Shown here: one piece after another, positions 196-56,775 of the stretch
Layout: the number at the start of each line of letters is the position of its first letter
Position numbering within the stretch: position 1 is the stretch's first letter
Source: Spongospora subterranea f. sp. subterranea
Lineage: Eukaryota
Length of the DNA: 56,775 nt
Direction of reading: 5' to 3'
NCBI GenBank assembly: GCA_049724395.1
Contig: JAUGWO010000045.1
Span: forward strand, 248,001-304,775
Notes under the pieces: model-generated
Database searches by the model: none
Seen by the model: only the letters and a program-made list of their open reading frames with translations
What the model was told of the DNA's origin: nothing
Made by a program: the position numbers and the translations under genes

Positions 196-2613
196 ATGGT
201 CGTGAACGATCAACGGTATCCTGTATCGGGCCAGTCCATGGCCGTTCAATCCGGATATGATGTCAACGAAAGTCTGGTCTATACCCCAATTATGACGTCG
301 AATCCACTAGAGGTAGTTGGTACAGCAACTTCTGAATATCGAATAAATTCTGAGTAAATTGACGTAGTTTGACAAATTGGGATACAAGTGCCGTTTTGCG
401 TCCGATAATACGGTGGCGTTCATCGTTATCACTATGTACAATGAGGGCCCTGAAGAGCTGACCACAACCCTTCGGGGGGTGTGCGAGAACGTCAAGGCGT
501 TCGTCGACAGGGAGGACGACAAACAGTTCTGGAAAAGGATCGCCGTTTGCATCGTGTCCGATGGGCGAGGCAACGCGTCGCAGGAGACGCTGGATTGGGC
601 AACGGAACGGGGGCTGTTCAGCCAGGACGATGTCGACCGGCAGCTCAACAAGGACGCTGACGTGGGCGTCCATCTGTTCGAAAGCACCATCATGTGGACC
701 GAGGAAACCGAGGCGACCTCCAAGTACCCACCAATACAGATCATGATGGCGCTGAAAGAGCGGAATGGAGGGAAGATCGACAGTCATTACTGGTTCTTTT
801 CCGCATTCGCAGCGCAGATCAAGCCGGAATACTGCTTCCTTTTGGACGTGGGGACAAGGCCAATGCCCAAGGCTCTGTACTTCCTGTGGGAGACGATGTC
901 TCGCAACACCCAAATGTTGGTCAATCTCAATAACTTCGCTCCTGGACCCATTATGGCAATCTGACCCTTTGCCGATTCAGAGGTGGGTGCTGCGGTGAGA
1001 TCAGCACCATGTCCAAGTTCTCCTGTAATCTGATCCTATCCGGTCAGACGTTCGAGTACAAGGTCAGCAACTACCTCGACAAGGCCACCGAATCCGTGTG
1101 CGGGTACATCAGCGTCCTTCCTGGGGCGTTCTCGGCGTATCGATTCGCGGCGTTGACCGGATCCCCGCTCCAGAAATACTTCCACCACATTGCCACACCC
1201 ATGGATAAACTCACCCCGTTCGAGGCCAATCAATATCTCGCCGAGGATCGCATCCTCTGTTTCGAGATCTTGGCCAAAGCCGGCTGTGATTACACTCTTC
1301 ATTACGACAGGTAAGCGGGGGGGAAATCGCTTCGAATTGGGCCCGCGAATTCGACGAATCGCTAACCACGATCTCGTCCCTAGGCGAGCGGTGGCCAAGA
1401 CCGATGCCCCAACCGAATTGGTCGATCTGATCAAGCAACGCAGGAGATGGTTGAACGGGAGCTTATTGGCCACGTTCTATACTGTGATCAATACCGGCAG
1501 ATTTCTCAAGAACACGTCGCACACTCCAAAACGGAAATTTGTCATCACGATGCAGTTCCTTTACTATATCTTCCAGTTATTGGTGAGTTCCCGCTCGTCG
1601 TTGATCATGCTCAATCGCCATTGAATCGCTCCATGGCGTATCAGATGACCTGGTTTATTGTAGCGAACGTCTACTTGACGTTCTCGTTCTCACTGATTGT
1701 GATCCTGGGTCGGGATCACGTCCTCTTCGCGATTCTGCGATATATTTTCATCGGGCTCGTGATCACCCAGTTCGTTCTCGGCCTAGGTCAGCCTGAATAA
1801 CCGGGCTCCGATATGGGTTTTTCCTCATCTGTTGTTGCCGGAATCTTCAATGTCAGGCAATCGTCCAGGGTCGGTCAAGATGATGTACATGGGATGCGCC
1901 GTCCTGTGGTCGTTCATATTTCTGTTGACCACCGCCTTATCGATCTACACGCTGGCGATCGCACGCATCAACCCCTACCTACTGATCGTGGTTTTCATCC
2001 TCTCCATCGGCTCCATCTTCGTGGCGGCCATATTCCATCGGGAAATCGTGGTCGTTTCCTCGAACGCAGCGCAGTACTTTCTCGTAGCGCCCGTATTTCT
2101 CGTAATGTTCCCTGTCTACAGTATTTGTGAGTCACTTTTCATGTTGATTCGCCAGTCGGTGCTAAGTTATGTTCATGACAAGGCAATTTGCACGACATTA
2201 GCTGGGGCACAAAAGGAATTTCCGACGCCGCTGAAATAAAGCGGGATGATCGCGCGGACAAAAACGCTGATGTTGACGAACGAGTTCGGGCAAAATTACG
2301 TCGGATCGCTAAGATGAAAGCGGCCGAGAAAGTTCTGAGAGTGGCGCAACAGGAACGATTCGGAAGATTCAGAACTTATGTCCTCCTTCTGTGGATATTC
2401 TCGCAGGGTTTATATGTCAGCCTTGTGCTTTCTTATGAAATCGCCGCGGCGAATACCGAAGCAGTTGCCAAATATTTCTTGCAGATCATGTTTATTGTTG
2501 TTGCCACAACAAATTCTATTAGGTTTTGTGGGTCGGCAATATATTTAGCGATTCATAACATCACAAAGAAAAAGAAGGTACCGGCATATCCCGCAATCCA
2601 GAACAAGCAGTAG
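196..2613 (+). CDS. CHS: Chitin synthase (GT2, division-1 type), multi-exon
   Basis: Motifs across exons: ITMYNE, KIDSH, LLDVGT, GGCCGEI (joined by intron 916-980), FEYK, SVLPGAFSAYR, LAEDRIL, QRRRW, DISWGTKG. C-terminal TM helices. Introns are GT-AG, e.g. 313-367. Confidence 0.96.
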
Positions 2614-31235: not shown

Positions 31236-31648
31236 AATCGGAGCGTTCATCGCCTTTGCGGGACTCCCTATGGCAAGGATGAAGAAGGGTATGGTGAGCG
31301 GGTATGGTCTTCAGGCATTGGGCCATTGTCAGATTGCCAGAGTTAGCAGCAATAACTTTAGACTCTTTGATGGCAGTGATGGCTCAGTCGATCCAGCTTA
31401 AATTCTCTTCGTGCTATCTCAGCCACTTTTGCTTGCGACATTTTAAGATTGGCTTGATGAATTTCCAAAACACGAGCCCGTTTAGAGGGTGACAGTTTCC
31501 CTTTATGCGACACCTTAGACGCGCGTACAGGAATAACACAAGCGAAAGCTTGCTGACACTTTTCTGATTTTGAGCACCAAACCCGCTGATCATATCCTTC
31601 TTCATCCTTGCCATAGGGAGTCCCGCAAAAGCGATGAACGCCCCGATT
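31236..31648. repeat. Long inverted repeat (arms of about 70 bp with a 34-bp perfect core) enclosing further stems
   Basis: AATCGGAGCGTTCATCGCCTTTGCGGGACTCCCTATGGCAAGGATGAAGAAGG... starts at 31236. A near-identical reverse complement ends at 31648. Confidence 0.9.
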
Positions 31649-33949: not shown

Positions 33950-36151
33950 TCAATGAAATGCTGCTGAGTCCGCTATTGGAATTTTGACTGAGCTTTTTTC
34001 AATTGTAGGCAATGACTTAATCACGTCCGTTTCTCCGCCAGATGTTATTGCGACTGTCGAATTAATCACATGCACTTTTTTTTCTTCAAATGACCCCCTA
34101 TCATTGCTTCCTTGGTGGCCATTATTACCGTCAGAACCAGCGGTTTCGTGGTTGACCGCATTGACATTGTTCACGTTGTGGATCGCAATATTGTTATTGT
34201 TCGAATTATTGGTCTCGATCATGTTGTTATTGACATTGTTGATGCCAATGTGGTTGTTGTTGATATTGCTAATGTCAATGTTATTCTGCGATGTTTGGCC
34301 TCTGCCAGCGACGTTATTGCTATCGATATTGTTGGTCACGATATTGTTACTATTAAGATTGGTAGCAATGACGTTGTTGGTAGCGATGTTGTTGCCGTTT
34401 GAGTTGCTGATAAGACTGCTGTTGTTCAAGTTGTTGATAGCGATGGTATTGCTGTTTAGAGTGTCACTGGCAATGTTGTTGCTGTTCACGTTGTTGTTTG
34501 CGATACTATTGCTGTTCACGTTGTTGGTTGCAATGTTGTTGCTGTTCACGCTGTTGGTTGCGATACTATTGCTGTTCACGTCGTTGGCTGCAATGTTGTT
34601 GCTGTTCACGTTGTTGGTTGCGATACTATTGCTGTTCACGTTGTTGGCTGCAATGTTGTTGCTGTTCACGTTGTTGGTTGCGATACTATTGCTGTTCACG
34701 TTGTTGGCTGCAATGTTGTTGCTGTTCACGTTGTTGGTTGCGATACTATTGCTGTTCACGTTGTTGGCTGCAATGTTGTTGCTGTTCACGTTGTTGGTTG
34801 CGATACTATTGCTGTTCACGTTGTTGGCTGCAATGTTGTTGCTGTTCACGTTGTTGGTTGCGATACTATTGCTGTTCACGTTGTTGGTTGCGACACTATT
34901 GCTGTTCACGGTATTGGTTGCAATGTTGTTGCTGTTCACATTGTTGGTTGCGATCTTATTGCTGTTCGCGTCGTTGGTTTCAATGTTGTTGGTAGCAATG
35001 TTGTTGTTGACGTTGTTGGTTGCAATGCTGTTGCTGTTCACGAAGTTGCTATCAATGTTGGCGTTGTAGGTAGCAATGTTACCGCTGTTCACGTTGTTGG
35101 TAGCAATGTTGTTAATGTCGATGTTATTAGCGACAGCGTTATTGTTCATATTGGCACTATTGATACCCGTTGCCGTCCGCGTCATTATATCAGCGTTTGG
35201 AGTGGCGCGAACTAAATACGCGGAATTGGTGGAATCCACCTGGATCGGCGCTGGCGTTTGCGGCATAGGAATGCGGATAAAAGTCTCGACGTCAACAGGA
35301 ATAGCTCGAGGTCTACGAACAATAGGCTGTTTTGTTGGACGCAGCCTTGGAGAATACGCTTTAACCTCAGTCCGACGGACACCACGATTGACAGCATTAG
35401 CTGCTGCGAACGAGTATGAGGCCCCGGATGCAATATTATTGGAGGCATACGTCGGTGGTTGAGCGCGTCGAGCGAATCCAGGCGCTGATATTGATATACC
35501 GCGAAGAGGAACAACCTTGACTGGCTCGCATTGTGTAGTTGGTGGTGACACAATTCTCTCGAGGGGGGCCGGGGCATCGGTGCATTCCACCTTGGTGAGA
35601 ATTGGGGTGTCGGTACATTCCTCCTTAGTGACAATGGGGGCATCAGCACAATCCTGTTTAGTCGGAATCGTGGCGTGAAGATGAAGGCGAGATGGCGCCA
35701 GTGGACGAGGCGGTTGGTTAGGGCATTCAGGGGTTATCGTCTGAACCGGATGTATTATAGGCTTTGGACCAAGAGCGGCGTATTGTGCTATTGAGATATG
35801 GTCGGTGACAAGGCGGTTCACCGGGGAAGGAGTCTTGCCCGATTCAGATTCGCAAGAGAATCCGACCAGGGATGAACCAGTGTCGCCTTTGATTCCCTCG
35901 GGACCGTATCGCCATGTAACAGGGAGTGGTCTCGGGGAGGCCGATGGCGCTACGACAATACCTGCAATACGATATGTTTGTGGAGTTTCGGGAGCCAAGC
36001 CAGGCTCGTCACTGCAATCGTCGCGATGAATAATGGTCAATGGCGGACCCTTAACAGGAATAAGGGGCGCCGCGTTATCTGGGCAGTCTTGGCACATTCC
36101 CAAAGACACGAAGAGCGCCACACATAATGTTAGGATAAATGAGATACCCAT
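33950..36151 (-). CDS. Secreted protein with Pro/Cys-rich N-terminal half and Asn-rich decapeptide tandem repeats
   Basis: 733-aa intronless ORF with a signal peptide (MGISFILTLCVALFVSLGMC) and NNVNSN(S/N)IA(T/A) repeats. Confidence 0.8.
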   Translation of the reverse strand: MGISFILTLCVALFVSLGMCQDCPDNAAPLIPVKGPPLTIIHRDDCSDEPGLAPETPQTYRIAGIVVAPSASPRPLPVTWRYGPEGIKGDTGSSLVGFSCESESGKTPSPVNRLVTDHISIAQYAALGPKPIIHPVQTITPECPNQPPRPLAPSRLHLHATIPTKQDCADAPIVTKEECTDTPILTKVECTDAPAPLERIVSPPTTQCEPVKVVPLRGISISAPGFARRAQPPTYASNNIASGASYSFAAANAVNRGVRRTEVKAYSPRLRPTKQPIVRRPRAIPVDVETFIRIPMPQTPAPIQVDSTNSAYLVRATPNADIMTRTATGINSANMNNNAVANNIDINNIATNNVNSGNIATYNANIDSNFVNSNSIATNNVNNNIATNNIETNDANSNKIATNNVNSNNIATNTVNSNSVATNNVNSNSIATNNVNSNNIAANNVNSNSIATNNVNSNNIAANNVNSNSIATNNVNSNNIAANNVNSNSIATNNVNSNNIAANNVNSNSIATNNVNSNNIAANDVNSNSIATNSVNSNNIATNNVNSNSIANNNVNSNNIASDTLNSNTIAINNLNNSSLISNSNGNNIATNNVIATNLNSNNIVTNNIDSNNVAGRGQTSQNNIDISNINNNHIGINNVNNNMIETNNSNNNNIAIHNVNNVNAVNHETAGSDGNNGHQGSNDRGSFEEKKVHVINSTVAITSGGETDVIKSLPTIEKSSVKIPIADSAAFH
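34450..35110. repeat. Coding tandem repeat, 30-bp unit with a 60-bp higher-order period
   Basis: The 60-mers starting at 34621, 34681, 34741 and 34801 are identical. Flanking units are degenerate. Confidence 0.95.
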
Positions 36152-36964
36152 GATTAAACTTTATAGCAATGAACGAAAATTGACCACCATTCACGATGAT
36201 CCGGATTTCCGGATCAGGATGAGTCAACAACCAACAGCCGACCAAATTTCGTTCCTCAAGCGAAACCTATCTGCGATGGTGACTCATTCTGGAGTGTCGG
36301 AGAGAAGTAGCGGGGGGAAAAAGGCCAAGGAACCCCAACGATCTGACTAAGGGTCAGGACGGTCATCCCCAAGACTTGATTGACCAACTTGACACAACCA
36401 TCGAGGGCTTGAGACGGTCTACCTGGTGGAGAACAAGTGGCACATGTATCGAAATCGCCCAACGTCCACTTGACTGGAGTCAAACTGGATTAGACACACA
36501 AAAGACGGAGGCGATAATCCGATACTGATCATCTAAGAAAATGCAACCCAATTTACCAAGCGGACCGCTAACATGAGAAAGGGGTAGCGGAATCCGGTGA
36601 TCACCGCCATCAAATGCGGTTCTACTATTGACAAAGTTAAGCGTGACGATGGTGGTGTTTCAAAATATGTGCAGGGCCCCTCGTCATCATGAATAAACGA
36701 TCTTTGACACTGGGATAATAATTTACTAATCGCAAATCCACTTTCAACATCATCACAAGCACCACGGTTTGAGTCAAATTCCCATCTCAAAATTTTCATA
36801 GTTGTATTGTTTTAATTGTAGACGGCTCTCGCAACAAATCATCCGGCGCGGTTACGTTTAGTGTGCCCTCCAGGGTCGGGAAGGAGTCAACCGACGGTCG
36901 GTGTGTCATTGTACCCTGAAAATCAGGGAGATTCTGATCCAAATGATGTTGAGATGGTAAAGCG

Positions 36965-38291: not shown

Positions 38292-38569
38292 TCAAATGGA
38301 TCGAAAGTATGCGCTTGTGGGATGAGATCATCTCAACATGCGCGAAGTGGAATTCTATACGATTCCGCACACCGATGTCGGAGCATCCTGAGCACTTACA
38401 AGAATCGACGATCATTCGTCGATTCGAATCGAAGTACGGATTACTTAGCGTTATCGTCCGACCAGATACCAACGCCGACATCGGGAGCGTGTGCGGAATC
38501 GTATAGAAATCCACTTAGCGCGTGTTGAGACCATCGCAGCCCGCACGCGCATACTTTCGATCCATTTGA
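38292..38569. repeat. Foldback element A: arms of about 81 bp with an internal 10-bp hairpin
   Basis: Arms 38292-38372 and 38489-38569 have about 9 mismatches. GAATCGACGA-TCAT-TCGTCGATTC lies at 38402-38425. Confidence 0.9.
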
Positions 38570-38669
38570 TGGGTCCACCGGCCCAACTCCCATTAAATCT
38601 TCAAATGACAACCCGCTGGGGCATCTAGTTTGGTTCTGCATTTTATCCTGTCCGAGCAGTACAAGCTAA

Positions 38670-38905
38670 ATCGGTAGCCATCAGACACGAAGACAGTACT
38701 GGGAATCTTACACAATCGTGAGATTACAGAAATCGAAGGCCAACGGACATTCACCCAGAAAGAAAGATAGACTCATACATGACACCTGCCAGCGTAGGGC
38801 TGGAATACTCGAAAACTGTGATGAGTACCCGTTGGCCTTCGATTGCTGTAATCTCGCGATTATGGAAGATTCCCAGTACTGTCTTCGTATCTGATGGCTA
38901 CTGAT
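38670..38905. repeat. Foldback element B: arms of about 80 bp
   Basis: GTAGCCATCAGACACGAAGACAGTACTGGGAATCTT... pairs with ...AAGATTCCCAGTACTGTCTTCGTATCTGATGGCTAC. Confidence 0.9.
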
Positions 38906-39031
38906 CACACTTGTTGGCTAATGAAAATGAAGACGATCATCTCTGCAAATTGCGCATACACACACGAGAGGCTCGGAAGACCGAATGTGATACTATATGT
39001 ATCAAACGTCAACATCTCGTGACAAGTCATA

Positions 39032-39111: not shown

Positions 39112-39447
39112 CCTACGATTTACACGGTTCATCGGCGATTTGTTCTTAGTTCATCTTTGTGTTTTTCATCGCCAATAATTTTGATCTGCCAAGCCGATGT
39201 GTGGATGCGGGAAATATCGCACTTGTTAAGGGACATAATCATCACCAGTTGAGTCATCTGGTTCCCATTTCTGACCTTATATAACCCTAACATTTCGCAT
39301 TCGTTCAACCTAATTTTAATCAATTATTCGCGTGAGGGGACATCATGCTTATGAACACATCGCAAACCCATCTTGATTATGGAATCTGGTTGGTCTGGGG
39401 TTTTTATCTCACAGGTTCGCGACGCCCAAACATTCGTGGAACAATCA

Positions 39448-47726: not shown

Positions 47727-48666
47727 GGCCCGCGTTTAGCTGGCGACCACCTGTGATTATTGTTGTCGATCCACCGTCTCGATCGCTGGTGATGATGCTA
47801 CACCAGTCACTTGATCCTCCACGGTATGTTGAGGGTCATTATAGTGTATGCACTCATCAGTCATCCTCGCCTCTCCTAATTTGGCTCCCAATTTGGATCG
47901 GCACTGCCAAATACAGTACGATCAACGGATAAACCTCGACCTTGGTGCTTTGATAATTTTGGTTTAGTTGAAAGGGTTCTAATACACGAGACGTATCTGC
48001 TTTCAGGATTATAAGTGCGTGATGGTCTACAGTATGGTGCGATGGGGTCCACCCTCAACTGCCAAGTCCTGTGGAATGTATTGCTAATCGTGAGTATGGA
48101 TATTCCTTGCGGGCACCGCGACGCCAGTTTTTCTTTTACAGACCCATTGGTTTTCGTTGATTGACGTAACAAGAATCTTTCAAAATCATATAGTCCATCT
48201 CGTACCAGTCTAGAGTTAGTGATGCCAGTGTATGCCGGCATCAGGACGGGCTGGAAAACACTATGCCTGCGGAAACTGTAGCACTATAGATCCCGCCGAT
48301 GTTTACAGTAAGAATCGAGACGTCTGGAGGACATATATATATTTCATATCTAAAATGACAACGAAATAAATCTGATATATATATCGCCCCTCCTTACCGA
48401 TGACATGTATATGATGTTTTTCGAGTGAAGAAATCCATTGGTAAAGCATCGGTCGGGTGATTACAGAACAGGGTGGGACCCACTTACTGTGAGGGTCAAA
48501 TTCTGGCAGTGCAGCGACCCATGACTGTGCTGTACTTATCAGTGTAACGAATCGTTACGGGGCGGAGCGATCATTAGGAATATTGATTAAATTAAGGGGT
48601 CAAATTCCATCGGTCCATAATCAGGCAGACGGCTGTGGCAGGCGTCGACAAAGGGATCATCGATAG

Positions 48667-51388
48667 ATGAAGGCTCCATGCCTTCAAACTTGGTGTCCAT
48701 TGTTTTTTTTGCTGTGTGCCGTTACGGCTTATAACCAAGAAACCGAATGGGCCGCTATCGATGACGACATCAGGAACATGGTTGATTCGATGTCTCTTGT
48801 TCATCGAATCGGGCAAATGGTGCAATTAGATATTACTATGTTCCTTACGGAAGCCGGTGCATTGAACCAATCTGCTCTGCATTCGGCCGTGGAATATTTT
48901 GGTGTCGGTTCAATTCTCAACTCACCTTCAGCTATGACTACGGAAGGGGTGCTCTCTGTTCAATCATGGAGACAATTGATCACCGACATCCAGTCTGTGG
49001 CGCTTGGAGCCGGCCCCAAAATCCCTATCCTTTATGGTCTCGATGGTATCCATGGCGCGAACTACGTAAAATCAACGACACTATTTCCGCATCAGATTGG
49101 ACTTGCTGCTACTTTCAATCGCAATCTTGTCCGAAAAGCGTTCGCAATTAGGTTGAAATCATTTCTTTTAATCTAATCGAATTTTTCTGAGCAACACCGT
49201 ACAGCGCAAAAGATACCAGGACGTGTGGAATTCCATGGTCGTTTGCTCCAGTTCTGGATATCTGCCTTCAAAAACAGTGGCCACGCGTTTATGAAACCTT
49301 TGGAGAAGATCCATACCTGGTAATTGTTTTCTTTCCATTGATAGCTTACGTTGATTTCAACGCTTATAGGCATCAGAGATGGGCAAAGAAGCGGTTTTGG
49401 GAATGCAAGGAGTCGAGAAAGGGGAACTTAAACTTTCTACAAAAGTCGCATCGTCTCTGAAACATTTTGTGGGTTACTCTAATCCGAGGTCTGGACAAGA
49501 TCGTACCCAGGCATGGATACCTGACAGGTAGGATTGCTGCCTCCAGTAATCTCAATATTTACATCTAGTTAGGATCCTTCGACAATACTTTCTACCTCCA
49601 TTTCGTTCCGCCATTAAAGCGGGCGCAGCTACCGTAATGGAAGCATATGCTGATGTAAGTTTATATATTTCCACCTGATTTAGTCTCACGAATGATGTAG
49701 AATAACGGACAGCCGGTAGTCTCATCAGAGTTTTATCTGAAAACAGTGCTTCGAGACGAACTCGGCTTTAAAGGGGTGCTTGTTACTGATTATAGTGAGA
49801 TTAACAACCTTTATTGGTGGCACCACGCTGCTCATTCACCGTCCGACGCCATCCGGATGGCAATACAGCAAACAACCATTGATATGTCAATGGTGGTCTC
49901 GTCTTTCAACTTTTCGACGACTTTAACGCAATTAGTGAAGGACGGAACCATCGATTCGAATCGAGTCTCAATCAGTTGCGCTAGGGTGCTTCAGCTGAAA
50001 AAAAATCTTGGACTCTTCGACGACCCATTTCCTACAAATGACGCGAATCAGATAAACAGCGTCGGAAGTAAAAGAGACAGGCATGTCGCACTTGACGTTG
50101 CTCAACATAGTATAACTTTGCTGAAGAATTCTCCACTTTGCCCCACCTGCCGTTCAATACTACCTCTTTCTCGAACATCCTCCAAGCGAATGCTGCTAGT
50201 GGGCCCATCTTCAGATTCTCTTAAGGTAATCATACTTCGCGAAACTACGATGGTTATTAGTAAATAGTTCTAAATGGATACAATGTTTTGCAGTTGCTAA
50301 GCTCTGGGTGGACAATGCACTGGCAAGGAGCCTCCGAAACAGAATTTTCTTTTGGGACAACGATAAAAGAAGGAATCAGGAGGGTTCTTCATGGCTCGTC
50401 TCATTTATTACAACATTCGAGTGCGTGCTCTATTGAAAACTGTTCGACAGAAAAACGGTCCGAGATTATCAAAGCGTCGGACGGTGCCGATATCATTATT
50501 GTTTGCTTAAGTGAGCCTGTATATACAGAGAAACCAGGCAATATTAAAGATATGGAATTCGATCAAGATCAAATCGACTTGGTCAAAGAACTTCACAGCA
50601 AAGGGAAGCCCATCATCGTCATTTTAACAATGGGACGTCCCCGCTTATTAGGAAACATCGTCAAAATGGCATCTGCTGTCATTCATGCGTACCTGCCAGG
50701 ACCAGAAGGGGGAGAGGCGATCGCCAACATCATTTTTGGGTTAGTTAATCCGAGCGGCAAACTGCCGATGACCTGGCCCAAGCATTCGGCCCTTCTAAAC
50801 TTGCCATACTGGCACGCGTTTTCATCCGCTGATACTTTTGACGTCGAGTTTCAATTTGGAGATGGGCTGTCATATTCAATTTTCTCGTATTCAGACCTTA
50901 TCTTATCAAACAACGTAATGACATCATCGACCGGAATTGACATTTCCGTCTTAGTGTCTAACACGGGAGATGTTGACGGATACGAGACGGTGCTATTGTT
51001 TTTAACAGCTGATTATCGAACCGTATCACCTGAAGTCCGCTTATTGAAACGATTCAGCAAAGTGTGGATTCCTGCAAAAACATCCAAACTAGTTCAATTC
51101 ACACTTTTTGCAAATGACACCGAATTCTTCATTGGTGATCAGTCTATTCCAGTTTTAGAGGATGGGGTTTTCTCAGTTCAGGTTGCCAATATCTCTTCTA
51201 AGTTCAACTTGGTCGGTTTATCTCCGCAAAGTCGCCTCGCCAGCCTCAGTTATAATGACGATGTTGGCTTCTCACAAGAAATATTATGGTTTATTTTTGG
51301 ATCTACTGTATTCTGCCCTGTTTGGTATTACTGGTTCAAGCTTTACCTTGAGCGGAAACACAGAGTCGGTGATTATGTTGCCATTTAA
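48667..51388 (+). CDS. GH3 beta-glucosidase with signal peptide, FnIII-like domain and C-terminal TM, multi-exon
   Basis: IGQMVQ, PILYGLDGIHGA, FPHQIGLAATFN, FAPVLD, WPRVYETFGEDP, KHFVGY, GFKGVLVTDY, LPGPEGGEAIA and FGDGLSY. Confidence 0.95.
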
Positions 51389-51521
51389 TAAATACTTATT
51401 CTCTTTAATAAAGTATCGCATATTTTAACCGCAAAATTTTGTTGTTAAGTTCGATTACATCTACCATGAGTCGGTAAATATTATAATGAACTTGACCACA
51501 TGCTCGGGTATGACCGCGCTG

Positions 51522-53009
51522 CTAATGGATGTACGCAGTGATCTCGCCCTCGTTAGCTTGAAATTCCAGTTTTAAATACTTGAGATAAGTAATTACAGCT
51601 GGTCGAAGCTGTTAAGTCACGATTAGTAAACGGTACCTGCTATTTTTGCAGTATTTTACTTTTGGAGCAAAAGTGTCAGCGCTATGTCGTCCGATCCCCA
51701 CGATGATAGATAGACGACGGATTTGCATCGGATACGCAGCTTGTATTCTCCTAATGCAATCTCGTAAGAGTTTTCGAGCTTCCGGAACATGCATTTCATG
51801 CAAATCTAAGCTTCTCAGCTTGCTGGCAGATGGATTGTATTTCTAAGCAGATATCAATCAGAAAAATACTTGCAAAAGCTAAATTACAAGTACAATAAAT
51901 GTTGCCACCATGATACGCTCACGAAGCGGGATCATCTTTTCATTAATGTTTCGCGCTTTTTCATTAAGGGACTGAGCAAAAGAATTTTGACCATTCGAAT
52001 GTGCTTGGCGAGCAGCCCAACATGTTTGCGCTTTTTGATGGGTTAGAAATTTGTACAATCTACAATTATTTTCCATTGACACGGATTCTGATGAAGTATG
52101 ACATCCTCGATAAAGTTTGTCAAGCTCTGAAAGCGTTTCGAAAGAAAACTCACACCCGACGTCGGAAACTGTTGCAGATTCCGGAACATGTTTCTTGGGT
52201 GCAGCTACGGTATCGGGAGACGATGCTGTGAACAAGCTGCACAGAGCGTCTTTTGAAGGCTGGACCGCAAAGTCGTGTGCTTCTAGTATTTCGCGAATAA
52301 TGGCTGCACTTGCTGCTGGAAACATTCTCTAAACCGAACTGAACGGAAATCCGAAATTTATTTGCAAAAACTACCTTAAAGCCGTGCAATTTGATGTGAT
52401 TAGCCATATTCAACTTCGCAGACTGAAGGTCTTGAAGTTTTTGATGTCTTAGAGCGCAAAATGTGATCAATTACCAGCTCTACAGACCGATTGTTTTCGA
52501 CAAAAACGTCATGAAGGACGGGGTCCGGAATCAACGGGAACATCATCGACAGTTGCCTTACTTCATCCTAATCGATATGCTCCGTTAGATCAACAATCTG
52601 CTGAACCCAAAACGCATTTTCGTACACTAGCAGCGGCATCGCTGTCCATGTCCATCATCATGGACAAAGCAAGATCGAAGTCGCCATCAACACTATTGAT
52701 GATATGTTGTCGGCGTTCATAATCAACAGACGGAAACATCTCCATCAAGCTAATCTGGGTAAAATCCTGATATAACGCATCGTTCTCTTTCATCTCAGCA
52801 CTATCCAGCAGAGGTTCTGCAGTTTCACATTCGAGAAGGCGGTCAACAATGGCCGAGACATCATGGGACCCAAGTTGGCGGATGTGCTGCTCGATAACGC
52901 TGTGGTGAATGTCTGGGAACACCTGGGTCAGATGGGCGATCACCTCGCCATCGATCTGCGCATCAAGATCCGCCCCATTATCATTATGATCATCAGTCAT
53001 GGGGGTCAT
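51522..53009 (-). CDS. CUE-repeat plus Smr-domain endonuclease (Cue2/N4BP2-like), multi-exon
   Basis: CUE-like LTQVFPD, LMEMFPS, LSMMFP and MFPA. Smr motifs LDLHEMHVPEA and LSIIVGIGRHS. Confidence 0.82.
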
Positions 53010-53529
53010 GCACCACAGTGATGATCACACCGCCTCCTGTCAAGTGTCAACTAGCACTCGGGTTCGAGGCCGAGCATCACCTGACAGGGGCGTGGGGGAT
53101 ATGAGTGTAACAGTACACACCAGAACCTGCACAGTACTGCACAGTACACACCAGAACGACGCTGCAATCACTGCAGTTGTTGAACACGTTACGTTATACC
53201 TATTTCAGGTTCACGCACTTGAAGTGTACCACTGTGACTGTCGTTTTGGCGACTGTAGATGTTCCAAACACAGTGCGTGAGAGCCGTGCAGTATTTTGAT
53301 GTTTGGAATTTTAAACAATTTTTGAAATTCAAGAATTCACAATTGAGTTGCCGACAAACACACGGTCAGCTGGGTTGCTGCGGCCATAAAAATCCTTGTC
53401 CATAAAGTCACTGGCGCGCAAGTGCCCAACATTATTGTCGTCGAAACGGCTCAAGAAAGAAAGACTCAGATTTTGTATTTGACATTAAGTCTTAACGGCT
53501 TAAAGCAGCGATCCGAACAGAATGAGGGA

Positions 53530-54075
53530 TTCCATGAAACTGGTTATTTCAATTTTTGATCGTAAACGTCATTCAATGAGCGACTAATTTGGCCATCCAA
53601 TTTTGTGGATGAACGAATGTCGGTATTCGACGAATTTTCGAAGGGCCTGCGTGGCTTCGTCAACCTGCGTAATAGAATGCATTTCGAAAGACCCTAATGG
53701 GCGAAAGATCAGTATGTGGATTGACAACTGTGGCGGGCACAACGACACCGAAGAGTCGCAAGATGTCCTTGTCACAAAGAACAGTTATTCGGCGATTTGC
53801 ATCGAACGCCACGAATCTGGTCCAGCTGTGATAAGCAAAATCAAAGACGCGTGGATATGATTCACAGAGGGAGGTGGTCTGACGCGGGTGGCAAGGGCGG
53901 TGCATCTTCTGGCAAGTTGCTCACCAGGCAAGATTTTTTTCCTCCAGCTTGCGGTAATTCGCAGCGAGACGCGAATGGGTTAAAAAAGCGATGATCCGTT
54001 GCGGTTGTCGCTGGATATCAACGGTCAATGGAGCGAGCAACAGCCCTCTCGCGAACTCCAGGTTATCCTGCGTAC
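53530..54075 (+). mobile_element. Decayed pogo-like (Tc1/mariner superfamily) DDE transposase fragment
   Basis: Read through frameshifts: PNGRKISMWIDNCGGHN, RRFASNATNLVQ, VISKIKDAW, SGKLL.PGK.FFLQLA, KAMIRCG and SLDINGQW. Confidence 0.7.
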
Positions 54076-54425
54076 CTTGAAGGACGTCCAGTCGAAAGTG
54101 GGAAATTTAAATAAAGCAAGAGCACGTCACCCGTGAGACACCGTTTTTCGATCAGACGTCATCCCATTCGCCTCAAGTCTTACAACGCCCTGAATGGTGC
54201 CATCTCCTACTCTAATGTCGATGATCGCGCTGCCAGCCATCTGTAATGTTCACTGCATACTGTGCAATATAGTTTTGCAATGATTTGACTGTGCCACAGG
54301 CATTAGTGTGACCCTAGCGTGCGAGTGTCCAAACATCTCGCGCGGTAGAAAAAGCCACCGAATAATGTGGCTCACACTATTTCCTATGAGGTGTCGAAAT
54401 TGAGAAGGTTGACAATTAGTGTGAC

Positions 54426-55652
54426 TCACACTAAACACGGTTGACGGTGTACCAAATTATCCTGCACTGAAGCATTGGAAACCAATTCAGCGTCCGGCGC
54501 CTCCTGTAAATGCCTCTGGATAAAATACGGCCAATCCTTGACATATTCCTTGATTATCCTCTCGGTTTTGCGCCAAGGCATAGCTTCGAGAGCGTGAACA
54601 CGACACGCACAGTCTGCAGGAGAATAACATTTGAATAGATTGATCTCCTGAAAACGTCGCCTAAGTGACAACAAAAACTGATCACCATTGCGATGATCGT
54701 TGAAGCATTCGTGCATAGTGAAGTTCGAAGAGACGATGACATGTAAAGGACGAATCTTGCGATAACCGCCCTTGAATTGAACCAACACGGGACGCGCGTC
54801 CGCAACATTCTCCACCATCGAAATCAACGCAATGATGTTGGCTGGCTGCCATTCAGAAAAAACAACAACCTTTTCGTCGGCATATCCGTCCCACCATTTC
54901 GTACAATCTTTTTCAAAAACGTTTTCGCTCCCGAAAAACCGAAACCAGGTCTCGGATTTGCCCACACCGGTCGGGCCCCCAATCCATATATTACGCAGCG
55001 CATCCAAACTGTTAAGCTGACGGAGACAAGCTCCGCGCTTCTCAATAGAATTGATAGCACTCTGGTACCGAACATAAAAAGAGGCATCAATCTCCTCTGC
55101 ACGACCCTGAAATGCCATCGCACGATAATTCTTCCAACGCTCCCGCTCCATTCCACCCTTCTGTTTGGAAGAAACAGGGGGGACACCGAACTCCTCGAAA
55201 TCCTTCCCTTTCGAACAATATATAAAACTCTGAGCCGCATCGCCTTTCGCGGGCGCCACCGTGAGAAGATACGGCCAGAAATCACCAATCAAACCCTGCT
55301 TGGTTTTCTGATTTTTGAAATACATATATGCTTGTAAATGAGGCCGCTCCGTCCGAGAACCGACTTCACGTCTAAATATGTAATACGACGCCGACGATTG
55401 ACGAAACTTGACTTCCGCACCATCAAACGTCGTCTCAGTGCCCAAGTGAACGGTCAAAACCCATCCTCTCGACTTCACATTGCCATCAGCAGCGCGAGGA
55501 GGACCCCCAGGTTGCCTCCGCCCACAATTACCCCTTCGAAGGTTAGCTGGAGACTCCACTGACAACGCACGGTCCACAAGAACCTGTTCTTGTCCTGTTT
55601 GAACCATTAGGATCTCACGCACATTTTGGGATCTCAGCAAGCATGACTGCAT
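54426..55652 (-). CDS. rep: CRESS-DNA virus-type replication initiator Rep (HUH endonuclease plus SF3 helicase), endogenous viral element
   Basis: Motif I WVLTVH, motif II PHLQAY, motif III YCSK, Walker A GPTGVGKS, WWDGY with Walker B VVFSEW, KGG..IRP, motif C IVSSN and Arg finger LRRRF. Intact and intronless. The second ATG at 55607 is an alternative start. Confidence 0.96.
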   Translation of the reverse strand: MQSCLLRSQNVREILMVQTGQEQVLVDRALSVESPANLRRGNCGRRQPGGPPRAADGNVKSRGWVLTVHLGTETTFDGAEVKFRQSSASYYIFRREVGSRTERPHLQAYMYFKNQKTKQGLIGDFWPYLLTVAPAKGDAAQSFIYCSKGKDFEEFGVPPVSSKQKGGMERERWKNYRAMAFQGRAEEIDASFYVRYQSAINSIEKRGACLRQLNSLDALRNIWIGGPTGVGKSETWFRFFGSENVFEKDCTKWWDGYADEKVVVFSEWQPANIIALISMVENVADARPVLVQFKGGYRKIRPLHVIVSSNFTMHECFNDHRNGDQFLLSLRRRFQEINLFKCYSPADCACRVHALEAMPWRKTERIIKEYVKDWPYFIQRHLQEAPDAELVSNASVQDNLVHRQPCLV

Positions 55653-55761
55653 GAGATCCAGTGCACAATTACATGTAAATACACTTATTGTATTAAGCGC
55701 TTCAAAACTTTAAACGCGCTTTTAAAGTTTTAAAGCGCTTTACGCGCATTTTAGGATCTCA
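55610..55761. promoter_or_regulatory. Putative CRESS origin/intergenic region with hairpin and iteron-like repeats
   Basis: GGATCTCA at 55610, 55629 and 55754, and inverted at 55652. A 20-bp stem 55695-55714/55721-55740 matches at 19/20. No canonical nonanucleotide in the loop. Confidence 0.6.
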
Positions 55762-55789
55762 TTCTCATTAGGTCTAGCCGCATATACCG

Positions 55790-56125
55790 AGATTGCAACA
55801 ACGAGACTGATTTTATTCGGTCAAACGTCTCAGATATTGGAAAAGATGGGGCAAGACTCGAGGAGTTTTTCGATCATTCCGAAAGAATATGGATCAAGAA
55901 GTATTCCCCGAACGATTGGATCATCTCGCGTCAGATTGGTAAATAGGAGGTTTTCAATAAAACGAACAATCCGTTGGAACGGTACAATTCTTTTTTCGAA
56001 TTCCCCTTTTCCGAGTGCTCATCCTAGGTTGGCTCATTTCGTGGGGACCTTGCGGCAACAGTCGAACAATCAGCTGCAGAAAATTGCAGGACTGTCGTTC
56101 TGGTAGGAATAAAGCGCCTCCCCGT
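55790..56125 (+). mobile_element. Decayed Mutator-like (MULE) transposase C-terminal fragment
   Basis: FFDHSERIWIKKYSPNDW, stop, NKTNNPLERYN, then after a frameshift FPSAHPRLAHFVGTL and GRNKAP. This matches the TNN.LE..N motif of MULE transposases. Confidence 0.7.
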
Positions 56126-56775
56126 AGACCGACGTTTACTCCAACATCATCGTTGATTTCGCATTCGTACAAGTCATTTTTATTGAACCGATGTGTTTCA
56201 CAAGAACCTGTTCAAATCGCATCCAATCTTGATATCAGTAGGGTGTTCCAACTAAAATCACCCTCGTATACTGAAAGTGCTGGCAATATAGCATCTGACG
56301 ATAGATATGGTGTTCCAGAAATGGCACGGTTATCGTCCATCACAAACGCTACGACGTGTGGATTGCACCTTGCTACAGCTTTGACCTCCTATGGCGAACC
56401 TTCCCCTAAAGGCACGTGATCAATATAGCTGCTTTCATTAATCCAAGTAATTTCGTAGGTGAACATGGTTGTCGGACGTTGCGTACAACACCTCCTGAGG
56501 GTCAGAAATATAATGTTCTTACCAAAGAATCATTTTCGACAAGTATGAATGATGATTGCTCAAGCGGTTCAAAATCAAGTTTTGGCGTCGACACTGGCGG
56601 GACAATGGGTTCAAATATTCAAGGTATCAAAGCCGAGTTTGTTTTTGTCTAGTGATTCTGTGCGCTTCAGAGAAGGATTGTGGTGTCTTCTCCATCCCCA
56701 ACCCTGTTTCGAATCATACGGATACAAGTACCGGGTATAGGTACAGATGGTTATTATGGCATATATTAGCTGAAA

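What the first reader, a model, noticed from the sequence alone, without database searches (positions are those of the whole stretch)
54426..55652. Intact endogenous CRESS-DNA virus Rep in a protist chromosome
Seen: a 408-aa uninterrupted, intronless ORF with the rolling-circle motifs (WVLTVH, PHLQ, YCSK) and SF3 helicase motifs (GPTGVGKS, WWDGY..VVFSEW, IVSSN, RRRF), about 1.4 kb from an intron-rich host gene. Known: this domain pair defines Cressdnaviricota Reps, and most such lineages come from metagenomes without known hosts. Inference: this is evidence of an ssDNA virus or replicon infecting this probable plasmodiophorid lineage. An intact ORF amid decayed TEs implies recent integration, ongoing activity or domestication.
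Basis: partly seen in the sequence, partly recalled or inferred. Interest (0 to 1): 0.9.

Follow-up and report, generated by a model that had tools for sequence, protein, structure and literature searches.

The report
Transcribed viral Rep inside protist chromosome
A protist chromosome carries a single, unbroken and transcribed copy of the replication gene of a small circular DNA virus, without its capsid gene, which likely reveals the host of a virus group so far known only from environmental sequences.

Summary
The ORF is real: minus strand, 54426-55652, probable start 55607 (393 aa). It has all HUH and SF3 motifs and a Rep fold.

It is chromosomal. Overlapping contigs from four runs bridge both junctions. 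Depth is single-copy in two DNA runs (30.1 vs 28.3; 70.9 vs 64.4), with no circular joint. One RNA run holds it on a deep contig whose 3' read-through has a spliced 65-nt intron. A second haplotype differs at 20 sites in 6 kb of flank but at none in the 1.55-kb Rep contig.

The window holds no capsid gene or canonical nonamer, only iteron-like repeats upstream.

The Rep forms a six-member unclassified clade (48-55% identity; other relatives 37% or less). The clade has an altered Walker B and a C-terminal Cys/His motif.

CRESS inserts in protists are known, and draupnirvirus inserts are already listed for the plasmodiophorid Polymyxa betae (PMC10193959). So the host group is not new; a host for this clade probably is.

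Best reading: a young, passively transcribed viral fragment (0.5). Rival: co-option (0.33). Host species and virus family were not determined.

The parts
54426..55607 (-). Rep gene, 393 aa from the likely start Met16 (the open frame runs up to ATG 55652)
   Evidence: AlphaFold model mean pLDDT 89; Rep fold matches
55209..55463 (-). HUH endonuclease motifs I (WVLTVH), II (PHLQ) and III (YCSK, Tyr145)
   Evidence: H105, Q107, Y145 and K148 are kept in 98-100% of 222 non-clade relatives and in all 6 clade members
54651..54977 (-). SF3 helicase motifs: Walker A K232, Walker B S266-E267, motif B K294, motif C N310, arginine finger R333
   Evidence: aligned to PCV2 Rep (E267 faces D216, S266 faces D215)
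54594..54629 (-). C-terminal C342-x5-C348-x-C350-x2-H353 motif, a predicted metal site
   Evidence: present in 6 of 6 clade members plus P0014 and, with different spacing, P0135; metal binding not tested
55610..55760 (.). Four copies of GGATCTC (three direct, one inverted) around the Rep start: iteron-like, likely remnant of the viral intergenic region
   Evidence: 4 of the 7 copies in the 56.8-kb window lie here; 7 of 1000 shuffles gave any 7-mer four times; function inferred
55695..55740 (.). AT-rich near-perfect palindrome upstream of Rep, no NANTATTAC nonamer in its loop
   Evidence: (I1)
54361..54433 (.). Left end of the insert; two copies of a 17-nt palindrome-like repeat (54363-54379, 54417-54433), one overlapping the Rep stop codon
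   Evidence: D14, I4; the window leaves the high-copy repeat consensus at about 54361 (table 7)
54011..54075 (-). 65-nt GT..AG intron spliced from the Rep-sense read-through RNA, lying in host flank DNA
   Evidence: joint in run X3 (tables 5, 5c); ends read after allowing for a one-base difference at 54002 shared by all four runs
54259..54361 (.). High-copy host repeat at the left junction
   Evidence: bin depth 668 vs 28 (X1) and 1529 vs 64 (X2); loose ends
53347..54246 (+). Decayed multi-copy sequence, pogo/DDE-transposase-like by recalled motifs (IDNCGGHN, NATNLVQ)
   Evidence: no Pfam match
55779..56775 (+). Multi-copy host repeat at the right junction, Mutator-like by a recalled motif (TNNPLERYN)
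   Evidence: paralogue contigs at depth 94-269 and loose ends at 55808; no Pfam match
51524..53009 (-). Neighbouring host gene, CUE + Smr domains, four introns (context, not part of the insert)

Best explanation
This is a single-copy, capsid-less chromosomal insert of about 1.4 kb holding the Rep gene of an unclassified CRESS-DNA virus; it is transcribed, likely from the viral promoter that came with it, and is probably a young insert with no host role yet. Shown: chromosomal position, single-copy depth, RNA with a host-type intron in the 3' read-through, all catalytic residues present, membership of a six-sequence Rep clade. Inferred: a virus of this clade replicated in the nucleus of this protist lineage; a fragment running from the intergenic iterons to near the end of Rep was joined into repeat-rich DNA (by Rep-mediated or repair-mediated ligation), losing the capsid gene, the nick-site nonamer, the polyadenylation signal and possibly a 60-residue tail. 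Without its own end signal the RNA would run on into the flank, where it is spliced. The protein is predicted to nick ssDNA and hydrolyse ATP but would have no origin of its own to amplify.
For: Bridging chain 48000-54017 (X1, X2), 53451-54293 (X8), 54076-55510 (X3), 54320-55872 (X2). Rep depth is 1.06 and 1.10 times the flank, and no go-back joint was listed. One Rep hit in six frames of the window and no capsid remnant: 87 of 88 tblastn hits of viral ORFs fall on the Rep ORF, the other is E 0.009 inside a host WD40 ORF. No exact NANTATTAC near either end. Nearest retrievable genomes are small viral contigs, 75 of 80 with terminal repeats; 7 of 39 tested partner ORFs match capsid families. 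No match in 72,556 plasmids. No frameshift or stop, and no more loss at conserved columns than its relatives: 9 of 47 versus 8-10. Transcribed Rep inserts are known even when defective (PMC3198968, passages).
Against: Zero differences in 1553 nt between haplotypes. The flank-wide rate predicts 4.9 (P about 0.007) and the rate of the adjacent decayed kilobase about 20 (13 sites, one of them probably an error of the window); the gene-rich rate predicts 2.2 (P 0.11). This fits purifying selection at least as well as youth. The X3 contig depth (1279 vs 204 for the neighbour gene) is high for a functionless insert, although contig depth cannot rank genes. No promoter was mapped. The host species and the age of the insert are unknown.
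Confidence: 0.5

Rival explanations
1. The Rep has been co-opted: it is kept by purifying selection and made as protein, most likely to block related viruses (binding their iterons or poisoning their Rep hexamers) or to act in host DNA metabolism at one life stage.
For: Invariant between two haplotypes while the adjacent decayed sequence differs at 13 sites per kb; deep RNA contig in X3 but depth similar to host genes in X8; spliced read-through; catalytic residues kept while capsid and nonamer are lost. Precedents: yam endogenous geminiviral Reps under selection and expressed (PMC5014472, abstract); poxvirus-captured Reps under purifying selection (PMC10193959, abstract passage).
Against: The roughly 370 non-coding nt of the same contig are also invariant, so shared recent ancestry explains the zero equally. 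The X3 contig stops at 55510, 33 codons inside the likely ORF, so a full-length message is not shown; a G-rich tract at 55503-55539 may explain the stop. Two charge-changing substitutions at otherwise conserved sites are private to this copy (G94R, K281E). No orthologue in a named protist was found.
Confidence: 0.33
2. It is an active capsid-less replicon or rolling-circle transposon that excises or copies itself.
For: Intact nuclease and helicase motifs, iteron-like repeats and hairpins at both ends; virus-derived Rep transposons are described in fungi (PMC3198968, passages).
Against: Single-copy depth at 90% likeness in two DNA runs; no circular joint; no terminal inverted repeat or target duplication longer than 5-6 nt at the estimated ends; no canonical nonamer.
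Confidence: 0.1
3. Assembly chimera or co-sequenced free virus.
For: Both junctions lie in repeats; only contigs, not raw reads, were laid; X1 may be the source sample.
Against: Junctions are bridged in different runs, including a haplotype that differs from the window (X2) and an RNA run (X3, 285 nt beyond the left junction). Depth equals the host flank in both DNA runs, and the RNA joins Rep to flank DNA with a host-sized intron.
Confidence: 0.03

Closest known systems
Draupnirviridae (CRESSV3) Rep and Cap inserts in Polymyxa betae and Chromera velia (PMC10193959; passages and supplement rows seen)
   Same: Cressdnavirus Rep insert in a SAR protist chromosome, one host being a plasmodiophorid; used as evidence of host range.
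   Different: This Rep sits among sequences with an IRP motif after motif B (219 of 222 relatives), which I recall as typical of the CRESSV2-like radiation rather than the circovirus-like CRESSV3. No draupnirvirus sequence was on hand to test this, so identity with the listed P. betae insert is unlikely but not excluded. Transcription was not mentioned for those protist inserts in the passages read.
Endogenous Rep-like genes of protists, fungi and animals (PMC3198968, passages); Kirkoviridae and CRESSV1 inserts (PMC9615429, passages)
   Same: Rep-only inserts (302 Rep versus 3 capsid in that survey), some intact and expressed.
   Different: Different virus clade and host; here single copy, with a spliced read-through into flanking repeat DNA.
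Unclassified environmental CRESS viruses: sewage-associated circular DNA virus-29, Lake Sarah-associated circular virus-38, spinybacked orbweaver circular virus 1 (the last is a circularisvirus in PMC6186406)
   Same: Best named structural matches; same domain order and fold.
   Different: Only 22-28% identity; first Walker B acid is S/A in this clade versus D/E in 221 of 222 relatives; extra C-terminal Cys/His motif.
PCV2 Rep (7LAR, 8XMS) and Vientovirus Rep (9PQQ)
   Same: HUH nuclease, oligomerisation helices, SF3 ATPase; residues facing K180, D216 and N256, each essential for PCV2 ATPase (PMC8406172, passages), are kept.
   Different: About 20-26% identity; residue facing D215 is Ser; longer N- and C-terminal extensions.

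Membership tests
Cressdnaviricota-type Rep protein | N-terminal HUH endonuclease with motifs I-III | tested here: met
   nuclease domain Z 14.8, rmsd 1.9, 99 aligned to 7kii
Cressdnaviricota-type Rep protein | C-terminal SF3 helicase (Walker A, B, motifs B and C, arginine finger) | tested here: met
   Z 13.2, rmsd 2.0, 126 aligned to 8xms; first Walker B acid replaced, second kept
Endogenous viral element | Contiguous with host DNA in independent data | tested here: met
   overlapping contigs of X1, X2, X3, X8 bridge both junctions; contigs only, no raw or long reads
Endogenous viral element | Depth equal to single-copy host DNA | tested here: met
   30.1 vs 28.3 and 70.9 vs 64.4
Complete CRESS virus genome (provirus) | Capsid gene beside Rep | tested here: not met
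   no ORF over 90 codons in 53200-54425; no capsid-like hit in the window; only 1.1 kb of the window lies upstream, and a capsid elsewhere in the genome could not be searched
Complete CRESS virus genome (provirus) | Stem-loop origin with NANTATTAC-type nonamer | tested here: inconclusive
   no exact match, two one-mismatch sites not at a hairpin apex; variant nonamers exist (TATGTGTAA in PMC6186406) and the clade's own nonamer is unknown
Draupnirviridae (CRESSV3) | Rep groups with draupnirvirus Reps in a tree | not testable with these tools
   no named draupnirvirus sequence could be fetched; the tree has unnamed rows only
CRESSV2-like lineages / cruciviruses | Rep groups with named members; tombus-like capsid for cruciviruses | tested here: inconclusive
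   IRP motif shared (its link to CRESSV2 is recalled); one BFVD hit named Cruciviridae sp. at rank 29; longest contigs of three clade members are 4.1-4.3 kb, but their DNA could not be retrieved
Domesticated viral gene | Orthologous locus in related species under purifying selection; protein made | not testable with these tools
   no genome held; only one intraspecific comparison, with zero differences
Bacterial pCRESS plasmid replicon | Rep related to plasmid Reps, plasmid context | tested here: not met
   no match in 72,556 plasmids at E 0.01; eukaryotic intron-bearing context

The most novel reading that the evidence does not exclude
A crop-associated soil protist has domesticated the Rep of a previously unrecognised CRESS virus family (marked by an S/A-D/E Walker B and a C-terminal zinc-type motif, genomes of about 4.1-4.3 kb, possibly crucivirus-like) and expresses it strongly at one life stage as a defence against, or a relic tool from, viruses that still infect it. 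This would give the clade its first host and point to natural DNA viruses of plasmodiophorids.
Probability: 0.25. Interest if true: 0.8.

Novelty: new member of a known kind. Interest (0 to 1): 0.5.

Why it matters
Most CRESS-virus lineages have no known host. A verified chromosomal copy ties one orphan clade (five other members, all from unnamed environmental assemblies) to a specific protist lineage and gives probes for finding the free virus. If the host is a plasmodiophorid it would probably be a second CRESS lineage in that group after Draupnirviridae; these protists are plant parasites and virus vectors, and the literature searches made here found no other CRESS virus of their own. The expression and lack of polymorphism make it a cheap test case for co-option of a Rep. 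The kind of event itself, a Rep-only insert in a protist, is well known.

Tried and rejected
Whole-genome search: no genome held, so paralogues under 90% identity and capsid inserts elsewhere are untested.

DNA of clade members: none retrieved from IMG/VR or JGI contigs (the three loci returned are 30-32% outsiders), so capsid type, nonamer and dN/dS against the virus are unknown. Shorter homologues: none among 438 candidates. Atlas: no result. Named references for a family tree: only 3-10 distant records per search in the phage set, not used.

Host naming: 1 of 10 host ORFs was in the protein collection (UniRef, EukProt), with no name shown. 4 of the 20 listed runs were laid; RNA of other studies and the 5' end of the transcript remain open. 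Lack of X3 cover at 55511-55807 is not taken as a transcript start.

Isolated C-terminal domain: pLDDT 60, not searched; the full-model search barely tests that part. Flank transposase families: no Pfam match. Rfam: none in 50000-56775. Helitron end or target-site duplication: nothing convincing. Continuation of the missing tail past the stop: no better than shuffles (649-883 of 1000). The loose nonamer pattern matched 79 of 80 viral loci, but chance matches to it are common, so it carries little weight. Earlier findings of this scan: none.

Zhao, Lavington and Duffy 2021, a broad survey of CRESS inserts cited in PMC9615429, is not held and might list this element. Supplements of bioRxiv preprints were not seen.

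Full report
Observation. Pfam finds the SF3 helicase (E 2.6e-6) and, weakly, Viral_Rep (E 0.008). The best solved-structure match by sequence is PCV2 Rep (E 8.9e-12). An AlphaFold model from a 111-row alignment has mean pLDDT 89. Its best matches are Vientovirus and circovirus Reps in the PDB and unclassified environmental CRESS Reps in BFVD. Two close relatives align from their first residue at base 55607, so the protein probably starts at Met16 and has 393 residues; their last 63 residues have no counterpart here. The neighbouring host gene (CUE + Smr, four introns) starts 1417 nt from the Rep stop.

Is it in the chromosome? 19 of 20 listed public runs, from 7 studies, hold the stretch or part of it; 4 were laid, all as contigs. 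Contigs overlap in a chain: 48000-54017 (X1, X2), 53451-54293 (X8), 54076-55510 (X3), 54320-55872 (X2). That chain carries host genes through the left repeat, the Rep and 93 nt into the right repeat. Rep depth is 30.1 against 28.3 in X1 and 70.9 against 64.4 in X2, and no joint suggests a circle. X1 may be the source of the window. X2 differs at 20 sites in 6017 nt of flank (one shared by all runs and probably an error of the window), so it is another haplotype. The chimera and free-virus readings are rejected, with the caveat that no raw or long reads were seen.

Anatomy. The insert runs from about 54361, where the window leaves a high-copy repeat, to about 55779, where a second repeat family begins (loose ends). 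It holds the Rep, four GGATCTC copies around the start (4 of 7 in the window; 7 of 1000 shuffles match this) and an AT-rich palindrome at 55695-55740. No exact NANTATTAC nonamer, capsid remnant, second Rep, terminal inverted repeat or target duplication was found. The flanks look like pogo- and Mutator-type remnants by motifs I recall; Pfam did not confirm this.

Expression. X3 and X8 are RNA, as their contigs skip host introns. In X3 a contig identical to the window covers 54076-55510 at depth 1279, against 204 for the neighbouring gene, and continues through a joint that removes a 65-nt GT..AG intron at 54011-54075. The intron's orientation makes the RNA Rep-sense, and it lies in flank DNA, so the transcript reads through the junction. 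In X8 part of the ORF is covered at depth 5.5, like host genes (about 4-12). Contig depth is a poor measure of level. The X3 contig ends 33 codons inside the likely ORF; the strongest G-rich tract of the region (55503-55539; 0.12% of window 25-mers score as high) lies there and may stop reverse transcription (inference). A full-length message is therefore not shown.

Relatives. Among 5.8 billion proteins four are 48-55% identical, and a profile search of 1.84 billion representatives added one (450 bits, next 210). All come from unnamed Logan or JGI assemblies; three lie on contigs of 4100, 4138 and 4270 nt, a similarity of size that suggests whole viral genomes but could not be checked. In a FastTree of 228 Rep cores (12 hits dropped for short coverage or as duplicates) the six form a clade with SH-like support 99. 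The backbone is weak, the root arbitrary and no row is a named reference. Other relatives are at most 37% identical. The best 80 of 550 IMG/VR relatives are 1.1-5.2-kb contigs, 75 with terminal repeats; 7 of 39 partner ORFs tested (of 79 extracted) match capsid families. No plasmid matches. Two clade marks stand out. The first Walker B acid is Ser or Ala in 6 of 6 members against Asp or Glu in 221 of 222 others; the second acid, facing PCV2 Asp216 whose loss abolishes ATPase (PMC8406172, passages; alignment), is kept, so the helicase is predicted to work. A C-x5-C-x-C-x2-H/C motif after the helicase is shared with P0014 and, in variant spacing, P0135, which also group next to the clade; a zinc site is a guess. 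The window copy departs from conserved columns no more than its relatives (9 of 47 versus 8-10), though G94R and K281E are its own.

Age and selection. X2 shows no difference in 1553 nt spanning the Rep. The flank-wide rate predicts 4.9 (P 0.007), the gene-rich rate 2.2 (P 0.11), the adjacent decayed kilobase about 20. This fits purifying selection, but the non-coding part of the contig is invariant too, so a recent common ancestor of this segment fits as well. I give a young, passively transcribed insert 0.5, co-option 0.33, an active replicon 0.1 and artefact 0.03.

Host. No call named the organism. Window GC is 47.1%, introns are 46-68 nt and a chitin synthase is present. This is compatible with a plasmodiophorid; Spongospora subterranea has 45.7% GC (PMC12883290, passage). 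That short introns and chitin synthases are typical of the group is partly recalled and partly from a search listing.

What is known. Rep-only inserts, some expressed, are widespread in protists, fungi and animals (PMC3198968, passages). Draupnirviridae Rep and Cap inserts are listed for Polymyxa betae (PMC10193959, passages and supplement rows). That study screened 24,764 eukaryotic assemblies with a broad query but, in the passages read, reported only draupnirvirus-like elements. Searches for CRESS terms with Plasmodiophora, Spongospora, Polymyxa, Rhizaria, plasmodiophorid or Phytomyxea returned no other report in their listings. A review of Spongospora resources has no hit for CRESS, viral or endogenous. 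The library lacks most subscription journals and one relevant survey. This Rep looks unlike a draupnirvirus by recalled motifs, but that was not testable.

Verdict. Its kind is known, and a plasmodiophorid host for CRESS viruses is already in print. What is probably new is a host for this orphan clade and a candidate for co-option. New member of a known kind; interest 0.5.

Noticed in passing
window 52426, 53526, 54002: One-base differences shared by the runs that cover them: likely indel errors of the window assembly. The one at 52426 breaks the frame of the CUE-Smr gene. None lies in the Rep ORF.
   Followed up: partly
window 50608-51388: The RNA of the CUE-Smr gene (minus strand) runs on to 50608 and overlaps the last exon of the convergent glycoside hydrolase family 3 gene by about 780 nt.
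   Followed up: no
window 53390-54004: The Rep read-through RNA approaches the 5' end of the same-strand CUE-Smr gene (contig end 53213); transcriptional interference is possible. X3 depth drops between about 53490 and 53670, perhaps a second intron.
   Followed up: no
window 368-2239: Intron-bearing chitin synthase gene (Pfam Chitin_synth_1 E 2e-44).
   Followed up: partly
window 33950-36160 (minus): 733-aa ORF with a signal-peptide-like start and a long Asn-rich 10-residue tandem repeat (30-nt unit), possibly a secreted or wall protein.
   Followed up: no
window 31236-31648, 38292-38569, 38661-38914: Three long inverted repeats (78-93-nt arms, 86-90% complementary), MITE-like.
   Followed up: no
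window 39292-39323 and 56156-56187: A 32-nt 78% match suggests another remnant of the right-flank repeat family elsewhere in the window.
   Followed up: no
P0008 (Logan contig of 1941 nt): A clade member with a 7-residue deletion, short ends and DG-to-NR change in WWDGY; it may be another endogenous copy in a related host.
   Followed up: no
L081 (OM869583.1) and related rows: A record with a CRESS-type Rep is filed under Microviridae in the phage collection.
   Followed up: no
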